Positions 1 through 29,443 of a DNA stretch of 29,443 bases are shown here, in pieces; positions within the stretch are counted from its first letter, which is position 1, and the number at the start of each line of letters is the position of its first letter. This DNA comes from a virus. Taxonomy: Duplodnaviria; Heunggongvirae; Uroviricota; Caudoviricetes. The notes beneath the pieces are model-generated. The model searched no databases and was not told the origin of the DNA. It saw only the letters and a list, made by a program, of their open reading frames with translations. Location: the IMG/VR virus record IMGVR_UViG_2609459795_000003; one strand, written 5' to 3'. The position numbers and the translations under genes are program-made.

Positions 1-303
1 TTCTCCCAAACCAAGGTTTTGAAGAGCCGTTTTCACCGTGCCGTCCGATTTGATATCGCCAAACGGATTTTTGCGACTTAACAGCAGCGCACGAAGCGCG
101 GTAAGCAGCTGGTCATGCCGCCCCTTCTCCAGGCTGGCACCGGATGCCTCCACCACGCTGCAGAGCTCTTCCTGCAACATGTCAAAGTAGTCATCATCCA
201 GATCGGTGGCAGGCGTGCCGGTCTGGGGGTTACCACGGGTAAAACCGTTCTTACCCGCGCCGAACTTATCCTTCTGCGCGGTTTTCGTGTCTATACGATG
301 CAT
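1..303 (-). CDS. Putative tail fibre protein, N-terminal part (gene continues beyond window start)
   Basis: Minus-strand frame opens with ATG at 303-301, 4 nt after the upstream gp48-like stop, and stays open to position 1 (101 codons, [21 protein letters not shown]...). It occupies the slot after baseplate genes where Mu-like tails encode the fibre. Not in the ORF track because no stop lies in the window. Confidence 0.45.
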
Positions 304-11309: not shown

Positions 11310-11694
11310 TGCTGCCTCCGTGACTCTGCCTACATTCGCCCAGCTCCGTACACTCCAGCAGCAGAAAGCGCCGCGCTCCGTTCAGATCGCGCTGACGTTT
11401 CACCCGGTACACACTGTCACCGCAGACCACCTCATAATCAGAGGTGATCCCCCGGCGGTAACGAATGGTGATGTAATGGGTGATGGCGTCTCCGGTCTGC
11501 GCGGTTTCCTGCCAGGTGGTGGCACTGGTCTGGATAACCTTCGCCCATGTACTGAACGCAACCGGGTATTGAGGCTCCACGCCAAAGTTATCTGCGGGCA
11601 TATCCACCCGCTGGCGGATCAGGACGCGTTTATTCAGTTCACCGGGGTCCGGCAGAATGTAGGTTGCGCTGGTCTGTGCCTGGCTAATTTTCAT
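11284..11694 (-). CDS. Head-tail adaptor / head closure protein
   Basis: 136-aa ORF after the connector gene; contains an IRYRR...Y.V pattern reminiscent of head-tail joining proteins (from memory). Confidence 0.5.
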   Translation of the reverse strand: MKISQAQTSATYILPDPGELNKRVLIRQRVDMPADNFGVEPQYPVAFSTWAKVIQTSATTWQETAQTGDAITHYITIRYRRGITSDYEVVCGDSVYRVKRQRDLNGARRFLLLECTELGECRQSHGGSNGDFLFAR

Positions 11695-12020
11695 TGCGGA
11701 AAGTACCTGTACGGGCTGACAAGCCAGCCAAAACTCTGCGGCATGTCGAGTTTCTCCACTTCCGTAACCGACGAGCGGTTTTCGTAAAAGTGGCTGATAA
11801 GCATCAGCATCCCAAGACGAATATCATCCGGCAGGTGCAGCCCGTCCGGATCGCTGTCCGGAATGGATTCATCCGGTGCATAGAGCTTCCGGTTCAGATA
11901 CGTTTCCGTCCGCTTTTGCGCCGCACAGGCCAGCAGTTGCAGATGGCGGTCATCGGCATCGAAATCCTCATCCAGCCGGAGTTGGGCTTTAATCTCTTCC
12001 AGTGTCAGAAGCATTCTCAT
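11691..12020 (-). CDS. Head-tail connector protein (gp6-like)
   Basis: 109-aa ORF downstream of the capsid gene; ATGA-type overlap with the next gene; typical position. Confidence 0.5.
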   Translation of the reverse strand: MRMLLTLEEIKAQLRLDEDFDADDRHLQLLACAAQKRTETYLNRKLYAPDESIPDSDPDGLHLPDDIRLGMLMLISHFYENRSSVTEVEKLDMPQSFGWLVSPYRYFPQ

Positions 12021-12216
12021 CCCTCTTTACTGGCCGTGGCTTTTTCTCTTTTGCCGCTTTACTGCTTTTTGCACTGGTTCCGCGCTCTGCTAACCCGGCC
12101 TGAAGTGCAATCTCCTGCACCCGGGCAGGAAGCGCCCCGTCGTCATACTCACCGGCCCTAATAACCTCAACACGCATACCGTCCGGTGACCATTTAAGAT
12201 CTTGTTTCAGGATCAT
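11989..12216 (-). CDS. Small hypothetical protein downstream of capsid gene
   Basis: 75-aa ORF with a lysine-rich C-terminus in the capsid-connector gap. Confidence 0.3.
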   Translation of the reverse strand: MILKQDLKWSPDGMRVEVIRAGEYDDGALPARVQEIALQAGLAERGTSAKSSKAAKEKKPRPVKRDENASDTGRD

Positions 12217-12265
12217 GATTCTTCACCCTTCAGAACAGGGGGCGCGGAACCGCGCCCATGAGCGA

Positions 12266-13471
12266 TTACTTCTCTGCAATCTTCAGCAGTTTGATGGCCT
12301 GCGAATCGACCAGCATTCCGCCGGTGCGCTTGGTGGTATAAAAACCGACAAACGGTTTATTGGTGTACGGGTCACGCAGAATGCGGGTGCCGATACGGTC
12401 AACGATGGTGTAACCCCGTTTGAAGTTACCAAATGCGATGGCTTTCGCATCCGCAGCAATATCCGGCATCTGTTCGTTTTCAGCAATACCGTACCCCAGC
12501 AGAGAAGAAGGCTGCCCCAGTTCCAGCCCCGGACGCCACAGATAGTTACCCTCGTTGTCTTTCAACAGACGAATGGCAAACAGGCTGTTGTTGTTCATCA
12601 TGAACTTCGCGCCAGTGCGGTGTGCCTTACGCAGCGTGTAAATCAGTTTGATAATGGCGTCTGCGGTCACCGCAGTCGCTTCGCCGGATACAATATGCTG
12701 AAGTTTGCCGAACGCCCGGACCTTATCGGTTTCATCAGTGGATTCATACGCCAGGAACCCTTTCGGCTTCTTGGTGCCATCGCCTGAGGTAAAGGCAATT
12801 TCTTCCTGTTCGGCAAATTCGGTTGCCAGCTCGCTGTTGATCCATGCTTCCACGTTGAAAAAGGCATCATCCAGCATTTTCTGGGTGGCCTGCGGGTTAC
12901 CGTAGATTTCCCCCATGAAAGGTTCAATCAGGCCCAGTTTTGAGGTGGCAGTCTGGGAGCGCGCGTCAGTCTCGCCAACCCATCCGGAAGCCGTGCCGCC
13001 CAGATTCACCAGTTTTTTGTAGTCGGAACCACCAATGGTGATCACCGTGGCTTCCTGACGCATCACCACTTCATCTTTCAGCAAGGTCAGAATGTTGCGA
13101 TCCAGCGCTTCCGGCACGGCATAGCCGCCGTCTTCATCGGTGCCCACCTGTAATGCCTTGCGCTCCAGATCGCGCAGACCATCTTCACGGCCTTTACGCA
13201 GGAAGCCCACAAACGCTTCTTTATGCTCGGTGGTCAGTTTATTTTGCGCACCACCTGCCGGACGTTTCAGCTCAAGCAGCTCTTTTTCAAGATCGCTTTT
13301 GAGGTTTTCCAGCTCGCTGAGTTTTCCGTTCAGGGTTTCCACCTGCCCGGCAAGCTTGCCTTTTTCCTGCTCAATCGCATCCACGCGCTTGTCGTTCTTT
13401 GCTTTGAAGTCGTCAAACTTCTGCTGCAGCTCCTGCGCGACCTGTTCGACATCTTTAATATCAACCGCCAT
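12266..13471 (-). CDS. Major capsid protein, HK97 fold, with N-terminal coiled-coil delta (scaffold) domain
   Basis: 401-aa ORF; first ~100 aa highly charged heptad-like (DIKDVEQVAQELQQKFDDFKAKNDKRVDAIEQEKGKLAG...), followed by a typical capsid body; directly after the prohead protease. Confidence 0.85.
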   Translation of the reverse strand: MAVDIKDVEQVAQELQQKFDDFKAKNDKRVDAIEQEKGKLAGQVETLNGKLSELENLKSDLEKELLELKRPAGGAQNKLTTEHKEAFVGFLRKGREDGLRDLERKALQVGTDEDGGYAVPEALDRNILTLLKDEVVMRQEATVITIGGSDYKKLVNLGGTASGWVGETDARSQTATSKLGLIEPFMGEIYGNPQATQKMLDDAFFNVEAWINSELATEFAEQEEIAFTSGDGTKKPKGFLAYESTDETDKVRAFGKLQHIVSGEATAVTADAIIKLIYTLRKAHRTGAKFMMNNNSLFAIRLLKDNEGNYLWRPGLELGQPSSLLGYGIAENEQMPDIAADAKAIAFGNFKRGYTIVDRIGTRILRDPYTNKPFVGFYTTKRTGGMLVDSQAIKLLKIAEK

Positions 13472-13485
13472 CGTATTTCTCCTGA

Positions 13486-14172
13486 TTAGAAGTTCAGATT
13501 TTTCAGTGCATTCAGTGCAGAGCCCACATCCTCAGCGTCGCGCAGGGACAGTGCGCCATAGCCCCCGGCCATGAATGCTTTGGCCTGGGTACGGGAGAGT
13601 CCGACATCACGCAGGACTCTTTCGATTTTTTTCTGTTCGGGGATTTCCCCGCGGGCCAGTGCGTTCTTGACGTCGCTGATCCGCGCCTCGTCGTTAGACG
13701 GGAACGTCACCAGGCTGACTTCCCAGAGGTCGATTTCTTTCAGCAGAAAGGCTTCTTTGCTCCGGTCATATTCCCAGTCTTTCAGGACGTACCCAATAGA
13801 AAGGCCGGTTAACGAACCGGCCTTCATGTGTGCATGTGCGCGTTTTGCGAGGGGATCATCATCAATAAGCAACCGTCCCCTGACGTAAAGCCCGACATCG
13901 TCTTCCTTCATTTCGGTGTAAACACCGATGGGTTCATCCATGCGGTGCTGCCAGAGCAGCGCAGGTAACGCTTTTCTGTCACTCCACGCCCGCAGGGAAG
14001 CAGCAAATGCCCCGGACATCACCACATCATCGTGGCTGTCCTTTACACCAAAGACGGAGCCATACCCTTCAAACTCACCGGAGTCACTGACAGATTTCAG
14101 ACTCAGCGGTACATCAAGACGTTGTTTCGTCTGCATTGGCGTTATCCTTCTGCTTACCGGCTTTACTGCCAT
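13486..14172 (-). CDS. Prohead protease (HK97 / S78 family)
   Basis: 228-aa ORF between portal and capsid; motif ...DSHDDVVMSGAF... resembles the catalytic region of this family. True start may be the internal Met (MQTKQ...) because the 5' end overlaps the portal gene. Confidence 0.75.
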   Translation of the reverse strand: MAVKPVSRRITPMQTKQRLDVPLSLKSVSDSGEFEGYGSVFGVKDSHDDVVMSGAFAASLRAWSDRKALPALLWQHRMDEPIGVYTEMKEDDVGLYVRGRLLIDDDPLAKRAHAHMKAGSLTGLSIGYVLKDWEYDRSKEAFLLKEIDLWEVSLVTFPSNDEARISDVKNALARGEIPEQKKIERVLRDVGLSRTQAKAFMAGGYGALSLRDAEDVGSALNALKNLNF

Positions 14173-15355
14173 CGGAGGGCTTCGTGGTCATGTTCATCGG
14201 TGTGAGATAGACATCACCACCGGGACGCGGATTCATATCTTCCAGGTCGCGGCAGTCATTGGGAGAGTAAATTCCCCAGTTGATCCCGGTGGCGTAGGCT
14301 TCAAAACGGGACTTCATATCCCCGCGCAGTAACGCCCCGGCGTTAAATTTGGCGTAATAAACGCCCTGCTTACTTTTTCGTACCAGTCCGGTGTTGATCC
14401 GCTGTTCGATGCGGGTCAGATACGGCACCAGTGAATAGTTGATAAATCCCAGCCCCAGCTCTTCGATATTGTTGAAGGTGGCGCGATCGGTGTTCTGCAC
14501 CATGTGCAACGGCACCCGGAACAGACGACAGATTTCTTCAAGCTGAAACTTGCGGGTTTCCAGGAACTGGCTGTCCTCGGCGTTCAGCGCCATCGACTTC
14601 CAGTCCAGCCCCATCTCAAGGATCATCGGGCGGTGAGCATTGCCAAGCCCGGTGTGACGCTCCTCAAAATCTTTCTTCAGGCGCTCATAAGCCTGATCTG
14701 ACAGCGTCTGCTCTGTACGCAACACACCCGACGTCACCGCGCCATTGCTGAACAGTCTGGCCCCGTGCTCTTCGGTCGCTGCCGCCAGCGATATTGCCTC
14801 GCGGGCATAGGCGATGGGATTCAGCCCCACCAGTCCGTCCAGCGTCAGCGTGCGCACATGCCAGATATCCTCCTGGCTCAGTACATCCGTGGAGCCATCC
14901 GGGAATGTGACCTGATAGACCGGCTCCCAGCTACTGTTAAGCTTCGGTACCACACAGCCGGGATCGACGGGCAGCAGTTCAGCCACTTCGCCAAATGCTT
15001 TCACTTTGTAGGCGTAAAAGTTTCCCCGCAGACACAGACAGGTGACCACCAGCTCCCAGAACTCCTGCGGCGTCATATAGCCATTGGGATGCGTGGAGAT
15101 CAGCTTATGCAGACGTTCGCCAGTGGCTCTCTGCTTCAGGCTGCCGTTCAGGTGATACAGGTTGCAGGGCAACATCCCGACCGACTCCGCCAGCACCCTG
15201 ACACAGGAAAAAACCGCCGTCAGTCGCATGGCCCGCTGGCTGCTGATCTGCTTTCCGGTATAGGTGTCGTAGGACAACCCGATAGCATCCGCCAGCTCTG
15301 CTGGCGTGGTCACCGGTGCGTCACTTTTTCGTTGAAATAATCCCGAAAAGAACAC
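14114..15355 (-). CDS. Portal protein (HK97 family)
   Basis: 413-aa ORF immediately downstream of terminase large subunit and upstream of protease and capsid. Confidence 0.85.
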   Translation of the reverse strand: MFFSGLFQRKSDAPVTTPAELADAIGLSYDTYTGKQISSQRAMRLTAVFSCVRVLAESVGMLPCNLYHLNGSLKQRATGERLHKLISTHPNGYMTPQEFWELVVTCLCLRGNFYAYKVKAFGEVAELLPVDPGCVVPKLNSSWEPVYQVTFPDGSTDVLSQEDIWHVRTLTLDGLVGLNPIAYAREAISLAAATEEHGARLFSNGAVTSGVLRTEQTLSDQAYERLKKDFEERHTGLGNAHRPMILEMGLDWKSMALNAEDSQFLETRKFQLEEICRLFRVPLHMVQNTDRATFNNIEELGLGFINYSLVPYLTRIEQRINTGLVRKSKQGVYYAKFNAGALLRGDMKSRFEAYATGINWGIYSPNDCRDLEDMNPRPGGDVYLTPMNMTTKPSDGSKAGKQKDNANADETTS

Positions 15356-15537
15356 TATTTACCTCCGCCGACAGACGACTGTGTACGGTCGAGATATCGC
15401 GCCACCAGCCACGACCAGAACAGGCACAACGCCCCGGCAACAACAAACCCCGCCGGGGGATAAATCAGCCAGGCACCATACGCCAGCAAAAGCGCCCCCA
15501 GCACGCCCACCAGAGGCGCGAGAATCAGCATGATCAT
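15355..15537 (-). CDS. Small putative membrane protein between terminase and portal
   Basis: 60-aa ORF with two hydrophobic stretches ([26 protein letters not shown]... and ...[16 protein letters not shown]); fills the terminase-portal gap exactly. Confidence 0.3.
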
Positions 15538-15548
15538 AATTACCTCAG

Positions 15549-17282
15549 TTAAAGCGAGCGGATCCCATAGGACTCAATGTGGTCAGACAGCGTGTCTTCT
15601 TTCTCGTACAGCATGGCTCTGCCAACCGCCATAATCAGCGCAACTGCACCATCGATTTTGTTTTCCGCCTGCTCTTTGACGGGCTTCACCACATCATCGT
15701 TACCCGGAATGGTTTTGCCGACCACGTTGCCGATACACCAGGTCATGATGGGATTGCCATCATGATGAAAGCGCCCCGATTCAATTGCCGCTTCCAGCTC
15801 TTTCATCGGGTCGGACATGTTGGTGTAGTTCTGAATGATAGTGATGGGGTTCAGGTCTTCATCAGCAAGGTCATGTGACAACCCGGTCGCCCCGAAGGGG
15901 TCGATGGGTGACTCACTGACCGGGCTGATTTTGTTCGCCGCTTTGGCCTCCTCGAGGATGTAGCGATAATCCACCTCCGCACCATCGGTAACGGTCAGAA
16001 CGCCCATTTCCACCCATTTCTGAAAGCGTTCGGCTGTCCGTCGATCTTCATTTTTCTCGACGCTGTACACCGTGTCATACGGTACCCAGAAACGCGGGGC
16101 CACACTGTAGTAATGCGTTTTACCGTCAATCTCGCGGGTATAAAGTCGCGCCATACTGTTCATATCCAGCTTACGCGCCAGGTCAAAGGCCAGAATGCAC
16201 GGCTGCCCCTCGAACTGCTCAAGGGTCAGTGATTTATCCTCGCAGCTCTGCCAGCTCACCAGATTGAAATACGCCGAACGCGCCGACACCCAGATATTGA
16301 GGTGTTTTGTTTTAAAGACGTTTGCCAGACGGGCGTTATTTTTCGCACGCTGCTGCTGACTTAACAAAAATTCGCGATAAACCGACACGCCAATATTTGG
16401 ATTGGCTTTTTCCAGCACCTGCGGGTCGGTCCAGTCATCGCCTTCGTCAACGGTATAGATGATCCCGAACAGTTCATCGTTGGGTACCGACCCGTTGAGC
16501 ATCTCGATAACTTCCCGCCGCTTGTCGTAGCACGGCCCCTCAATGTTGTACCCGGCAGTAGTAATGGCCCACATCAGTGGCTGACGTCGCGCCCCCATCC
16601 CGGTAAGCATCGTGGTGTAAAGCGCATCGGTGGCGTGCTCGTGATATTCATCCACCACCGCACAGTGGGGTGATGAACCATCACCGGGGTTACCGATCAG
16701 CGGTTCAAAACGCGCACCATCCTCCGGACGGTTCATGTTTGAGGCGTTAACCTCAATCCCGAACGCTTCCGTCAGCATGGGTGTGCGTTTACACATCAGT
16801 CTTGCCGGACGAAAGACTTCCCATGCCTGTTTCTCCGTCGTGGCACCGGAATACACTTCCGCGCCGAACTCGTTATCACAGGCAAAACAATACAGGGCGA
16901 CACCGGCAGAGATTGCCGATTTGCCGTTCTTACGGGGGATTTCGGTATACACCTCACGGAAGCGGCGCAGCCGGGAGCCTTTATTGACCCAGCCAAACGC
17001 GCAGCAGATCACAAAGAGCTGCCACAGCTCCAGCGTGATGGGCATCCTCTTAAATGCCCACTCACCCTTGGTGTGCGGCAACAGCTGAATAAATTTAGCG
17101 GCCCGTTCAGCCAGGTCCTTGTCGAAGCGGTAACGAAACGACTTACTTTTTTCCGCCATCAGGTCATCAAGATGCCGCTGGCAGGCCTGAATCACAAACT
17201 GGCAGGCCACAATCTTTCCGCGCACGACATCACGGGCATACTGATTGGCAGCATTTACGTTGGGGTAAGATTTCCGGCTCAT
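15549..17282 (-). CDS. Terminase large subunit
   Basis: 577-aa ORF; 4-nt overlap with the small subunit gene; followed by portal. Confidence 0.9.
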
Positions 17283-27134: not shown

Positions 27135-27682
27135 GCGTTAGTTTCTCCACAGTCACGACACGCCACGGCGCCCGGAGCTGCACACTCGCGGGCGTCATTA
27201 CTTTCTGAAATGCAAAAAATTTTGTAGACCAGTGCTGCATGCTCCTGCAGCTTCGAAATTGAGAGGTACAGCTCGTCGTTAATTGCTGTCTTCTCATGCG
27301 GTTCCACTACACCGTCTTCAATTGCTGAACGAATCTGTTTTGAATAACTGCCGATCTGTTCAATGACCTCCAGCAGGCGTTGGTTGATATCGGCGTTGTC
27401 CACATCCTCGACATCAGGAAGAGACACAAAGACGCCATTTGCAGACTGCGCCACAGCGTCAGCAATGAAGTGAGTTCCACCAGCACGTTGCAAAATCATT
27501 GCCCATCCCAGCGGGAAAATCTGATCGCCATCGGCACGAAGGCGGTTAAATAATGCGTTCTCTGTTACATCCAGCCAGTCAGCAGCTTCAGCGTAACCCC
27601 CCGGCAACGCTGCGATAGTTTTTCTGACAGCTTTCACGTACCACTCAGGCTGTTTTTCTACTTTCCAGTGATGCTTACCCAC
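27131..27682 (-). CDS. CII-like early regulatory protein (putative)
   Basis: 183-aa ORF immediately downstream of the Cro-like gene and upstream of the replication gene; family assignment by position and vague recollection only. Confidence 0.35.
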
Positions 27683-27935
27683 GGTTCACCTCCTGTTCCT
27701 GTGGTTTAAACCCATTCTGGTTTTGGCTAGATTGAAAACGTGCCGGATAAAGAATCTGCATTTCGCTGACTTCACCCTTAAAAAAATTGGCTAAACGTTC
27801 TGCAAGCTCGATAGATGGAATCTGCTCCAGCCTCTCAATACGACTCAACGTCGCTGGATTGACTTGAACACCCGCAGCAACATGCTGCAAAGTGAAACCA
27901 TGCGCCTTACGCACATTTCGTAATAGTGATTGCAT
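27675..27935 (-). CDS. Cro-like HTH repressor
   Basis: 86-aa ORF divergent from the CI-like gene; HTH-type segment (GFTLQHVAAGVQVNPATLSRIE); SD GGAGG 5 nt before the ATG. Confidence 0.6.
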   Translation of the reverse strand: MQSLLRNVRKAHGFTLQHVAAGVQVNPATLSRIERLEQIPSIELAERLANFFKGEVSEMQILYPARFQSSQNQNGFKPQEQEVNRG

Positions 27936-27945
27936 ATAACCTCCA

Positions 27946-28032
27946 AATATTGCGCGTTATGCATGTTATTTCACGCAATTATTTTGCGCAAGTTGATTTG
28001 CTTATCACGCAATAAAGAAATGTAATAAACGC
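27946..28032. promoter_or_regulatory. Immunity-region operator/promoter segment (OR-like) between cro-like and cI-like genes
   Basis: 97-bp divergent intergenic region with repeated CACGCAAT / TTGCGCAA-type motifs and a plus-strand -35 TTGCTT (27998-28003), 17-nt spacer, -10 TGTAAT (28021-28026) ending 6 nt before the cI ATG. Confidence 0.45.
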
Positions 28033-28725
28033 ATGAACATAGGAAACCGAGTCAGACAACTTCGCCAAGCGAAGAACATGAAAATCGCCGATCTCGCTGA
28101 AGCAATAGGAGTAGATGCGGCGAACATCTCGCGCTTAGAAACGGGTAAGCAAAAACAATTTACCGAACAAACACTGAGTAATATTGCCAAGAGCTTAGGT
28201 GTTGATATTGCTGATCTCTTTACCTCTGCCCACAAAAGTAATACTGTATATAAAAACAGTAATAATGAGGATGTTGCGCAGGTGAAGGATGTGTTCCGTA
28301 TTGAAATGCTGGATATCAGTGCCAGTGCGGGAAATGGCCTTATCCAAGGCGGTGATGTCATTGATGTGATTCATGCCATCGAATACAGAACTGATAATGC
28401 TGTATCAATGTTCGGCGGACGACCAGCCAATCACATCAAAGTTATCAACGTTCGTGGGGACAGTATGTGTCCAACCATTGAGCCAGGAGATCTCATCTTC
28501 GTTGATGTCAGCATCAATCAGTTTGATGGTGATGGTATATATGTCTTTGGTTTTGATGACAAAATATACGTTAAAAGACTTCAAATGATTCCTGACAAAC
28601 TGCTGGTGATTTCTGATAACCAGATTTACCGTGAATGGGGAATTACTAGCGAAAACGAACACCGATTCATGGTCTTTGGAAAGGTCTTAATCAGTCAGTC
28701 GCAAACCCTTAAGAGACATAATTAA
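28033..28725 (+). CDS. CI-type prophage repressor (HTH plus S24 LexA-like peptidase domain)
   Basis: 230-aa ORF; N-terminal HTH (RVRQLRQAKNMKIADLAEAIGVDAANISRLETGK), C-terminal autocleavage domain with GDSM (catalytic Ser) and VKRL (Lys); divergent from the cro-like gene. Confidence 0.85.
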   Translation: MNIGNRVRQLRQAKNMKIADLAEAIGVDAANISRLETGKQKQFTEQTLSNIAKSLGVDIADLFTSAHKSNTVYKNSNNEDVAQVKDVFRIEMLDISASAGNGLIQGGDVIDVIHAIEYRTDNAVSMFGGRPANHIKVINVRGDSMCPTIEPGDLIFVDVSINQFDGDGIYVFGFDDKIYVKRLQMIPDKLLVISDNQIYREWGITSENEHRFMVFGKVLISQSQTLKRHN

Positions 28726-28744
28726 CCTCAATATCCCATCCATC

Positions 28745-28769
28745 GGCCACCGAAAGGTGGCTTTTTATT
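28745..28769 (+). terminator. Rho-independent terminator after the cI-like gene
   Basis: GGCCACC-GAAA-GGTGGC hairpin followed by TTTTTATT, 20 nt after the cI stop. Confidence 0.65.
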
Positions 28770-28779
28770 ACCTATAAAT

Positions 28780-28830
28780 TTGCATACCTCGCAAATATTA
28801 CTTGCATATCTCGCAATTTAATTTTATCTT
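28780..28830 (+). promoter_or_regulatory. Tandem operator-like repeats with candidate rightward promoter (OL/pL-like)
   Basis: Two adjacent ~21-bp repeats TTGCATACCTCGCAAATATTA / CTTGCATATCTCGCAATTTAAT sharing the C-N-CGCAA core seen in the cI-cro intergenic region; -35 TTGCAT (28802-28807), 17-nt spacer, -10 TATCTT (28825-28830). Confidence 0.35.
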
Positions 28831-29028
28831 TTGTTCCAGACCAACTACCGGATTACAACAAAATCTGGTTGCAACACGGTGCATGTGTCGTAAGCAGTCA
28901 GTAAATGTCAAAAACGAACAGGCAGGACGCCCACGAAGTAGCCGCCTGGGGCATATGAAGTCCAGGATGATTCGTTGAGTCATGTTGTGCCACCAGGCAC
29001 TCATGTTAAAGCAGGTGTATGAAATGAA

Positions 29029-29443
29029 GTAAGCGTAAAGCCAATGCCGTCTGTAACACCTGCTCCTTGCAGACTAAATTAGAGCTCCTTCTAAATTAGA
29101 CGGAGTTCTATTGATGGATAAACCTACAGACTGGCGCTCCGGAACCCGCCGGATATTTTCTAATGAATTTAAACTTCATATGGTTGAACTGGCTTCGAAA
29201 CCAAATGCCAATGTTGCACAACTGGCCCGGGAACATGGCGTTGATAACAACCTGATTTTTAAATGGCTACGCCTCTGGCAAAGAGAAGGACGTATTTCTC
29301 GTAGAATGCCTCCAACTATTGTAGGCCCTACAGTATCACAATCTTTTCCGACCTCTCCGACTCTGGTTCCAGTGGAACTTATCGACACCCCGCGCTGTGC
29401 TACAGATGCTCCTGCTCCGGAGGCATTATCAGTTGCTTGTGCA
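29029..29443 (+). mobile_element. Left end of an insertion sequence (IS66-like terminus GTAAGCG; continues beyond window)
   Basis: Sequence GTAAGCGTAAAGCC begins at about 29029, 85 bp upstream of a transposase OrfA-type gene; IS66-family ends begin with GTAA as I recall. The other end is outside the window. Confidence 0.45.
29114..29443 (+). CDS. IS transposase OrfA-type HTH protein (partial, runs off window end)
   Basis: Open frame from ATG 29114 to the window end (110 codons: MDKPTDWRSGTRRIFSNEFKLHMVELASKPNANVAQLAREHGVDNNLIFKWLRLWQREG...); pattern typical of IS3/IS66-type OrfA/TnpA proteins. Not in the ORF track because no stop lies in the window. Confidence 0.6.
   Translation, partial: MDKPTDWRSGTRRIFSNEFKLHMVELASKPNANVAQLAREHGVDNNLIFKWLRLWQREGRISRRMPPTIVGPTVSQSFPTSPTLVPVELIDTPRCATDAPAPEALSVACA

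What the first reader, a model, noticed from the sequence alone, without database searches (positions are those of the whole stretch)
28770..29443. Insertion sequence next to the immunity region where the early-left operon should begin
Downstream of the cI terminator are tandem operator-like repeats and a plus-strand promoter-like element (an OL/pL analog). About 200 bp later an IS terminus (GTAAGCG..., about 29029) and a transposase gene begin, instead of N-like antiterminator, recombination or integrase genes. Either the IS has inserted into, or replaced part of, the early-left arm, possibly leaving a defective or induction-impaired prophage, or pL now reads into the IS.
Basis: partly seen in the sequence, partly recalled or inferred. 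Interest (0 to 1): 0.5.

Follow-up and report, generated by a model that had tools for sequence, protein, structure and literature searches.

The report
ISEc43 insertion after prophage repressor gene
A common E. coli jumping gene (ISEc43, IS66 family) has landed about 200 bases downstream of the left-hand operator/promoter of an SfII-like prophage; this is an ordinary event, and the window stops inside the element, so whether the prophage is damaged cannot be read from it.

Summary
A cI-type repressor gene (28033-28725) ends with a terminator hairpin (28745-28762). Two 15-bp operator copies follow (28780-28794, 28802-28816), and the same motif occurs in the cI/cro intergenic region. Similarity to uninterrupted prophages and to Shigella phage SfII stops exactly at 29028. 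From 29029 (GTAAGCG...) to the window end, the sequence is 99.8% identical to the left end of ISEc43, an IS66-family element.

The gene starting at 29114 is tnpA, an HTH accessory protein. It is not the DDE transposase.

The IS sits in the first few codons of a small early-left ORF of unknown function (phrog_3195 type). In the three closest relatives this ORF is only a 15-codon remnant.

Functional phages with this immunity region (SfII, mEp460, Stx2a_1447) have no annotated N gene. Their early-left arm is a short run of small ORFs, yfdR-type genes, xis and int, so no N gene is "missing".

The window ends 415 bp into the IS. The other IS end, the predicted 8-bp duplication (GAAATGAA) and the xis/int genes are therefore unseen. 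Simple insertion is most likely (about 0.6). An IS-associated deletion or rearrangement cannot be excluded.

This is an ordinary finding of low novelty.

The parts
27675..27935 (-). cro-like HTH repressor gene, first gene of the early-right operon
   Evidence: Pfam HTH_3. Annotated Cro in SfII.
27950..28012 (.). OR-type operator region between cro and cI. It holds copies of the 15-bp operator motif at 27998-28012 (exact) and 27950-27964 (minus strand, 1 mismatch).
   Evidence: Conserved in SfII, mEp460 and Stx2a_1447.
28033..28725 (+). cI-type prophage repressor (HTH plus S24 self-cleaving peptidase domain)
   Evidence: Pfam HTH_3 and Peptidase_S24. 99.1% DNA identity to the SfII cI region. 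The exact protein is widespread in E. coli.
28745..28770 (+). Intrinsic terminator of the cI transcript (7-bp stem, 4-nt loop, T-run)
   Evidence: Annotated as a terminator in SfII.
28780..28816 (+). Two tandem OL-type operator copies, TTGCATACCTCGCAA (28780-28794) and TTGCATATCTCGCAA (28802-28816)
   Evidence: Conserved in 11 related sequences.
28802..28831 (+). Putative pL: TTGCAT, 18 nt, TATCTT. The -35 hexamer lies inside the second operator. Inferred, weak match to consensus (7 of 12).
   Evidence: Read from the sequence. TATCTT is invariant in alignment A2, and TTGCAT is conserved in all but strain 442/2. Not detected by the consensus scan.
28832..29028 (+). Leader of the early-left transcription unit. 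No Rfam family, no boxA, and no more structured than shuffled sequence.
29003..29028 (+). 5' stump of the first early-left ORF (phrog_3195 type, unknown function). In the window it reads MLKQVYEMK and then a stop codon supplied by the IS end. RefSeq starts the gene at ATG 29024.
29021..29028 (.). Predicted 8-bp target site GAAATGAA, which should be repeated at the unseen right end of the IS
   Evidence: Inference. ISEc43 copies with intact flanks show 8-bp duplications, and PMC6531882 reports the same.
29029..29443 (+). Left 415 bp of ISEc43 (IS66 family), beginning with the terminal inverted repeat GTAAGCGTAAAGCC... The element is cut by the end of the window.
   Evidence: 99.8% identity to 2541-bp reference copies. 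One substitution at about 29351.
29080..29110 (+). Predicted hairpin inside the IS left end that pairs with the GGAG ribosome-binding site of tnpA
   Evidence: z = -2.76 for 29000-29135. Function is inferred.
29114..29443 (+). tnpA (IS66-family accessory HTH protein), first 110 of 144 codons
   Evidence: Pfam HTH_Tnp_1, 42 bits. The reference copy encodes TnpA, TnpB_IS66 and DDE_Tnp_IS66.

Best explanation
Shown: a copy of ISEc43 is inserted between window positions 29028 and 29029. ISEc43 is a 2541-bp IS66-family element carrying tnpA, tnpB and tnpC, with GTAAGCG termini. The host is an SfII-like lambdoid prophage whose closest relatives are integrated at icd. The insertion point is about 200 bp downstream of the OL operators and putative pL. 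It lies in the first codons of a small early-left ORF of unknown function. The IS genes are co-directional with pL.

Inferred, about 0.6: this is a simple transposition that duplicated the 8-bp target GAAATGAA. The rest of the IS would then be followed by the normal short early-left arm of about 2.9 kb, with small ORFs, yfdR, xisE, intE and attL at icd. The window stops in the IS because it is a contig broken at repeats.

Inferred consequences:
- The stump ORF is inactivated. In the closest relatives it is already a 15-codon remnant.
- 2.5 kb of foreign DNA now separates pL from xis and int.
- No convincing intrinsic terminator is predicted on the plus strand between pL and the IS or inside the IS. 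After repressor cleavage, pL transcription could therefore read into the IS and possibly through it.
- Excision may be reduced by polarity, but need not be abolished.

The confidence given (0.85) is for the shown core, the ISEc43 insertion at this site. The simple-insertion part stands at about 0.6.
For: Boundary:
- Similarity to uninterrupted prophages ends at 29028 in all 30 records listed.
- ISEc43 similarity starts at 29029.
- The uninterrupted sequence reads ...GTATGAAATGAA|AGTCCAGATT.

IS identity:
- 99.8% identity over 415 bp to copies annotated as the ISEc43 family.
- The reference copy has ends GTAAGCG...CGCTTAC, is 2541 bp long, and encodes HTH_Tnp_1, TnpB_IS66 and DDE_Tnp_IS66 proteins.

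Target duplication:
- Perfect 8-bp duplications flank 3 of 6 independent ISEc43 loci sampled.
- An 8-bp repeat is reported for ISEc43 in PMC6531882.

Operators:
- Exact motif copies occur only next to cI, 3 observed against 0.01 expected, and they are conserved in relatives.

Context:
- The window is 100% identical over 25 kb to the icd-site prophage of strain 442/2.
- In 442/2, A8 and AMSHJX01 the early-left arm is small ORFs, yfdR, xisE and intE.

Contig-break inference:
- Window position 1 lies in a tail-fibre gene. In strain 442/2 that gene is followed by tail-fibre assembly genes on both strands and a recombinase pseudogene, which I read as an invertible segment.
- The other window end lies inside a multicopy IS.

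Terminators:
- No plus-strand terminator is predicted between 28770 and 29137, and only one weak 5-bp-stem hairpin inside tnpA.
- The count inside the IS is no higher than in shuffled sequence.
Against: - The right IS end, the duplication and everything beyond it are outside the window.
- The exact junction and the predicted right junction were found in none of these: 5426 complete E. coli genomes, GTDB representative genomes, JGI metagenomes, IMG/VR, or GenBank phages.
- Half of the ISEc43 loci sampled lack a duplication or are truncated. One of them, L020, is an ISEc43 flanked by two truncated prophage genes, which suggests an IS-associated deletion in a prophage.
- pL itself is inferred. 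It scores 7 of 12 against consensus and is not called by the scan.
Confidence: 0.85

Rival explanations
1. IS-associated deletion or rearrangement. After insertion, ISEc43 mediated an adjacent deletion or inversion, or recombined with another copy. The early-left arm (yfdR, xis, int, attL) would then be lost or moved, leaving a locked-in, excision-defective prophage.
For: - 3 of 6 independent ISEc43 loci sampled lack a target duplication or are truncated.
- L020 shows ISEc43 between a 3'-truncated HTH regulator gene and a 5'-truncated antirepressor gene in a thrW prophage.
- Some strains carry up to 22 matching places, which gives many substrates for recombination.
Against: - Nothing in the window points to it. 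The left junction is a clean IS end at a site that is continuous in relatives.
- The copies without a duplication that I sampled sit mostly in old, IS-riddled pathogenicity islands next to pic or sat. They are not recent insertions.
- The window copy differs from the reference at only one base.
Confidence: 0.3
2. The IS sequence is only a fragment: a truncated ISEc43 left end followed by other mobile-element debris, not a complete active element.
For: Truncated copies exist. L015 ends inside tnpB. L021, L022 and L024 have tnpC cut by ISEc45.
Against: - The 415 bp present are intact, with one substitution, an open tnpA frame and an intact terminal repeat.
- Nothing in the window suggests nested insertions.
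Confidence: 0.12
3. Functional coupling. pL, repressed by cI in the lysogen and released by SOS-induced cleavage, now drives tnpA-tnpB-tnpC. ISEc43 transposition in this strain would then become induction-dependent.
For: - pL and the IS genes have the same orientation.
- About 200 bp separate them, with no predicted plus-strand terminator in between.
Against: - The tnpA ribosome-binding site is predicted to be sequestered in a stable hairpin within the IS end. In other IS families such hairpins limit activation by outside transcription (my own knowledge, not tested here).
- pL is weak by consensus.
- There are no expression data.
Confidence: 0.1

Closest known systems
ISEc43 (IS66 family insertion sequence of E. 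coli)
   Same: - 99.8% identity over all 415 bp present.
- Same GTAAGCG terminal repeat and same tnpA.
- Reference copies are 2541 bp, encode tnpA, tnpB and tnpC, and make 8-bp target duplications (PMC6531882).
   Different: - One substitution, A for G at about 29351, changing Ala to Thr in TnpA. It is not seen in the listed top hits, which are all at 99.8%.
- This insertion site was not found in any collection searched.
- Only the left 16% of the element is in the window.
Immunity region of Shigella flexneri serotype-converting phage SfII (KC736978) and the related SfV / mEp460 / CPS-53-type early regions
   Same: - cro, cI, the terminator, both operators and the leader up to 29028 are 99.1% identical to SfII.
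- The layout of the early-left arm in relatives is the same: small ORFs, yfd-type genes, xis, int.
   Different: - SfII is uninterrupted at this point and integrates at thrW with gtr genes.
- The closest relatives of the window prophage use intE/xisE at icd and have a shorter arm.
Lambda OL/pL-N early-left control region
   Same: - The position is the same: downstream of cI on the side opposite cro.
- It has repeated operators sharing the OR motif, and a promoter whose -35 overlaps an operator.
   Different: - Two operator copies were recognised here, not three.
- There is no N gene and no boxA/nutL-like site.
- The promoter matches consensus poorly.
IS insertions in the early regions of other lambdoid prophages
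   Same: The event is of the same kind. Among only ten places sampled for this cI, two carry IS3-family elements in the early-left arm or in int (L010 at 11403-12616, L007 at 15204-16417).
   Different: A different IS family and a different site.

Membership tests
IS66 family insertion sequence (ISEc43) | Terminal inverted repeats beginning 5'-GTAAGCG | tested here: met
   - Window 29029-29035 reads GTAAGCG, exactly where similarity to intact prophages ends.
- Reference copy L016 has GTAAGCG...CGCTTAC at both ends.
- Other IS66 members have GTAAGCG-initiated repeats (PMC12888890).
- Only the left end lies in the window.
IS66 family insertion sequence (ISEc43) | Three-gene organisation: tnpA (HTH), tnpB (IS66 Orf2) and tnpC (DDE_Tnp_IS66) | tested here: inconclusive
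   - The window holds only tnpA codons 1-110 (HTH_Tnp_1).
- The reference copy, 99.8% identical over the shared part, has all three genes.
- tnpB and tnpC of this particular copy lie beyond the window.
IS66 family insertion sequence (ISEc43) | 8-bp target-site duplication | not testable with these tools
   - The right end is outside the window. The predicted duplication is GAAATGAA (29021-29028).
- Reference loci L016, L025 and L026 show perfect 8-bp duplications.
- The predicted right junction was not found in public collections.
IS66 family insertion sequence (ISEc43) | Nucleotide identity to the named element | tested here: met
   414 of 415 bases identical to copies whose tnpC RefSeq names 'IS66-like element ISEc43 family transposase'.
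Lambdoid OL/pL early-left control region | Repeated repressor operators downstream of cI that share their motif with OR | tested here: met
   TTGCNTANCNCGCAA occurs exactly at 28780 and 28802 (OL) and at 27998 (OR). That is 3 observed against 0.01 expected. The copies are conserved in relatives. Repressor binding was not tested.
Lambdoid OL/pL early-left control region | Sigma-70 promoter overlapping the operators and reading away from cI | tested here: inconclusive
   - The candidate TTGCAT-18-TATCTT matches 7 of 12 positions.
- The consensus scan calls no promoter in 27600-29443, so it misses pR as well.
- In alignment A2, TATCTT is invariant and TTGCAT is conserved in all but strain 442/2, which reads TTACAT.
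Lambdoid OL/pL early-left control region | N antiterminator gene and nutL (boxA/boxB) as the first elements of the operon | tested here: not met
   - No N gene is annotated in SfII, mEp460, Stx2a_1447 or the intact prophages.
- No boxA-like match lies in 28770-29028.

The most novel reading that the evidence does not exclude
ISEc43 sits co-directionally about 200 bp downstream of a cI-repressed promoter with no predicted terminator in between. Its transposition genes could therefore be under prophage-repressor and SOS control. DNA damage would then trigger a burst of IS66-family transposition together with prophage induction.
Probability: 0.05. Interest if true: 0.4.

Novelty: already known. 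Interest (0 to 1): 0.1.

Why it matters
It matters little beyond annotating this strain.

An IS between pL and xis/int may lower the excision efficiency of an otherwise complete-looking SfII-like prophage. The junction 29028/29029 could also serve as a strain marker, because it is absent from 5426 complete E. coli genomes.

The finding corrects one expectation: phages with this immunity type carry no lambda-style N gene, so its absence is not a sign of damage.

Tried and rejected
Searches for the sequence beyond the window:
- I searched the exact left junction in complete E. coli genomes, GTDB representative genomes, JGI metagenomes, IMG/VR and GenBank phages. No match anywhere.
- I searched the predicted right junction (IS end + GAAATGAA + AGTCCAG) in genome and metagenome contigs. 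No match.
- I looked up contigs encoding the exact cI protein. It is present in more than 21,000 blocks of the collection, and the ten places shown all lack this IS, so the source could not be found that way.

Looking for an RNA element in the pL leader:
- Rfam with permissive thresholds gave nothing.
- The fold of 28836-29028 is no more stable than shuffled sequence, z = -0.2.

N/nut hypothesis, rejected:
- No boxA-like site in the leader and no N gene annotated in relatives.

Small ORFs in the leader:
- The 58- and 31-codon plus-strand ORFs and the 68-codon minus-strand ORF have no Pfam or PHROG match. I treat them as non-coding.

Consensus promoter scan:
- No hit for pL, but none for pR either, so the negative result is uninformative.

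Literature:
- I tried to read Roberts, Allison and Verma 2007 (SfV transcription-termination-mediated immunity, pmid 17947546). It is not held. I use it only as a lead from memory.

Full report
**What the window is.**
- Almost all long ORFs lie on the minus strand: tail, head, terminase, lysis, Q, replication, cII-like and cro-like genes.
- Window 1-25000 is 100.0% identical to a prophage of E. coli strain 442/2. That prophage sits next to icd and carries intE and xisE. The window is 99.7-99.9% identical to the same prophage in strains A8, AMSHJX01 and others.
- The right end of the window holds a divergent pair of regulators. One is a cro-like HTH gene (27675-27935, minus strand). The other is a cI-type repressor with HTH and Peptidase_S24 domains (28033-28725, plus strand).
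- This immunity region is 99.1% identical to that of Shigella phage SfII. It is about 90% identical to those of phage mEp460 and several Stx2a phages.

**Checking the observation.**
- The terminator downstream of cI is real. It has a 7-bp stem, a 4-nt loop and a T-run at 28745-28770, and the same sequence is annotated as a terminator in SfII.
- The tandem repeats are two 15-bp copies, TTGCATACCTCGCAA (28780-28794) and TTGCATATCTCGCAA (28802-28816).
- The generalised motif TTGCNTANCNCGCAA has exactly three perfect matches in 29.4 kb, against 0.01 expected from shuffles. The third match is in the cI/cro intergenic region at 27998-28012. A one-mismatch copy lies at 27950-27964 on the other strand.
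- I derived the motif from these same sites, so the count is partly circular. The clustering on both sides of the repressor gene is what an OR/OL pair looks like. Both copies are conserved in 11 aligned relatives, including the 90%-identical phages.
- The promoter-like element is the weakest part. The best candidate is TTGCAT (28802-28807), 18 nt, TATCTT (28826-28831), which matches 7 of 12 consensus positions.
- The consensus scan calls no promoter anywhere in 27600-29443. It therefore also misses pR, which must exist, so the negative result has little weight.
- In alignment A2 the TATCTT hexamer is invariant. TTGCAT is conserved in all but strain 442/2, which reads TTACAT.

**The IS end.**
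- Megablast of 28000-29443 against 5426 complete E. coli genomes gives matches that all stop at window 29028. No record spans the junction.
- Window 29029-29443 is 99.8% identical (414 of 415 bases) to hundreds of copies of an element whose transposase RefSeq names 'IS66-like element ISEc43 family'.
- The alignment shows that identity begins at the G of GTAAGCG at 29029. There is a single substitution near 29351.
- A clean reference copy (L016) is 2541 bp long, ends in GTAAGCG...CGCTTAC, and is flanked by the 8-bp duplication CACTGATC.
- Its three genes match HTH_Tnp_1 (TnpA), TnpB_IS66 and DDE_Tnp_IS66.
- The ORF starting at 29114 in the window is tnpA, with 110 of 144 codons present. It is the accessory HTH protein, not the catalytic transposase.
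- GTAAGCG-initiated repeats in other IS66 members and an 8-bp duplication for ISEc43 are both reported in the literature (PMC12888890; PMC6531882).

**What was hit.**
- The uninterrupted sequence reads ...AGCAGGTGTATGAAATGAA|AGTCCAGATTTTAAAC....
- In prophage L001, RefSeq annotates a 91-aa hypothetical protein starting at the ATG that corresponds to window 29024. Other gene callers start it 21 nt upstream, at 29003. The PHROG profile phrog_3195 (unknown function, 98 positions) supports the longer form.
- The IS therefore entered at codon 2 or codon 9. In the window the stump reads MLKQVYEMK and stops at a TAA supplied by the IS end.
- In the three nearest relatives (442/2, A8, AMSHJX01) this ORF is already only 15 codons long, because a different mosaic module follows. 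Little or no coding capacity is likely to have been lost.

**What should follow in this phage type.**
- No relative has an annotated N gene downstream of cI. That covers the functional phages SfII, mEp460 and Stx2a_1447 and every intact prophage inspected.
- The arm instead consists of small ORFs of unknown function, sometimes yfdP/yfdQ, then yfdR, further small ORFs, xis and int.
- No boxA-like site lies in the leader. There is no Rfam family there and no unusual RNA structure.
- In the nearest relatives, the distance from the insertion point to the end of intE is only about 2.9 kb.

**What cannot be seen.**
- The window ends 415 bp into the IS.
- The window start lies inside a tail-fibre (gp53-like) gene. 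In strain 442/2 that gene is followed by tail-fibre assembly genes on both strands and a recombinase pseudogene, which I read as an invertible segment. Both window ends thus coincide with repeated DNA. I infer that the window is a whole short-read contig.
- Neither the left junction nor the predicted right junction occurs in any collection available.
- For a base rate I examined six independent ISEc43 loci. Three have perfect 8-bp duplications. Three lack one or are truncated.
- One of the three without a duplication has the IS lying between two truncated prophage genes.
- Those without a duplication sit mostly in old IS-rich islands. The window copy is nearly identical to the consensus. I put simple insertion at about 0.6 and IS-associated loss or rearrangement of the arm at about 0.3.

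**How it most likely works.**
- Shown: the IS is co-directional with the putative pL and lies about 200 bp downstream of it.
- Shown: no plus-strand intrinsic terminator is predicted between them. Inside the IS there is only one weak 5-bp-stem hairpin, in tnpA, and the count is no higher than in shuffled sequence.
- Inferred: in the lysogen, cI holds pL off. After SOS-induced cleavage of cI, pL transcripts enter the IS and may continue into yfdR, xis and int. Some loss through polarity is possible.
- Predicted: a stable hairpin at 29080-29110 pairs with the tnpA ribosome-binding site. Read-through transcripts need not be translated into TnpA.
- The prophage may therefore remain inducible. Impaired excision is possible but not demonstrated.

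**Comparison and verdict.**
- This is a known IS (ISEc43, IS66 family) in a known type of prophage (SfII-like immunity region).
- IS insertions in this arm are common. Two of the ten other places sampled for this cI carry IS3-family elements there.
- The specific site appears unreported in the collections searched, but that makes it a strain marker, not a new kind of thing.
- Novelty: already known. Interest: low.

Noticed in passing
L001 10543-10765 (+); same block in L003 at about 13455-13680; outside the window: About 520 bp downstream of the point equivalent to the IS insertion, intact relatives match the Rfam sRNA family STnc100 (RF02076). The score is 41.2 bits with E = 4e-7, just below the gathering score of 47. 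RefSeq annotates a 'frameshifted hypothetical protein' there. It may be the RNA element of the transcription-termination immunity described for phage SfV (Roberts et al. 2007, recalled from memory, paper not readable here).
   Followed up: partly
window 29080-29110: The two 'direct repeats' CTAAATTAGA in the ISEc43 left end (29074 and 29091) are arms of a strong predicted hairpin, AGAGCUCCU-UCUA-AAU-UAGA-CGGAGUUCU. It sequesters the tnpA Shine-Dalgarno GGAG (z = -2.76 for 29000-29135). It may protect against translation of read-through transcripts.
   Followed up: partly
window 29010-29018 and 29056-29064: A nine-base perfect complementarity links the phage flank (AGCAGGTGT, the ribosome-binding region of the disrupted ORF) and the IS interior (ACACCTGCT). 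It shows up in the centroid fold. Probably chance.
   Followed up: no
window 28942-28966, compared with L014: The hairpin CCTGG...CCAGG in the pL leader is replaced by CCGGT...ACCGG in relative L014. This looks like compensatory change. The leader as a whole is not unusually structured, and a 31-codon arginine-rich ORF overlaps the site.
   Followed up: partly
window 28918-28934 (minus strand): A terminator-like hairpin plus T-run on the minus strand lies in the pL leader. It is placed to stop leftward transcripts from the minus-strand small gene found in relatives (L003 13244-13435). The IS now lies between that gene and this terminator.
   Followed up: no
window 1-300: The window begins inside a tail-fibre (gp53-like) gene. 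In strain 442/2 this gene is followed by tail-fibre assembly genes on both strands and a recombinase pseudogene, which I read as an invertible segment. Both window ends thus fall on repeated DNA, which suggests the window is a complete short-read contig.
   Followed up: partly
L003 12805, equivalent to window 28804: The closest relative, strain 442/2, has TTACAT where the window has TTGCAT in the second OL operator and putative -35 hexamer. It is the only difference in 28000-29028.
   Followed up: no
L020 2561-5815 (E. coli 214-4, thrW prophage): Another ISEc43 copy lies between a 3'-truncated HTH regulator gene and a 5'-truncated antirepressor gene, with no target duplication. This looks like an IS-associated deletion in a different prophage. 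The strain has 19 places matching the IS left end.
   Followed up: partly
L010 11403-12616; L007 15204-16417: IS3-family elements are inserted in the early-left arm or in the integrase gene of other prophages that carry the identical cI protein. IS hits in this arm are recurrent.
   Followed up: no
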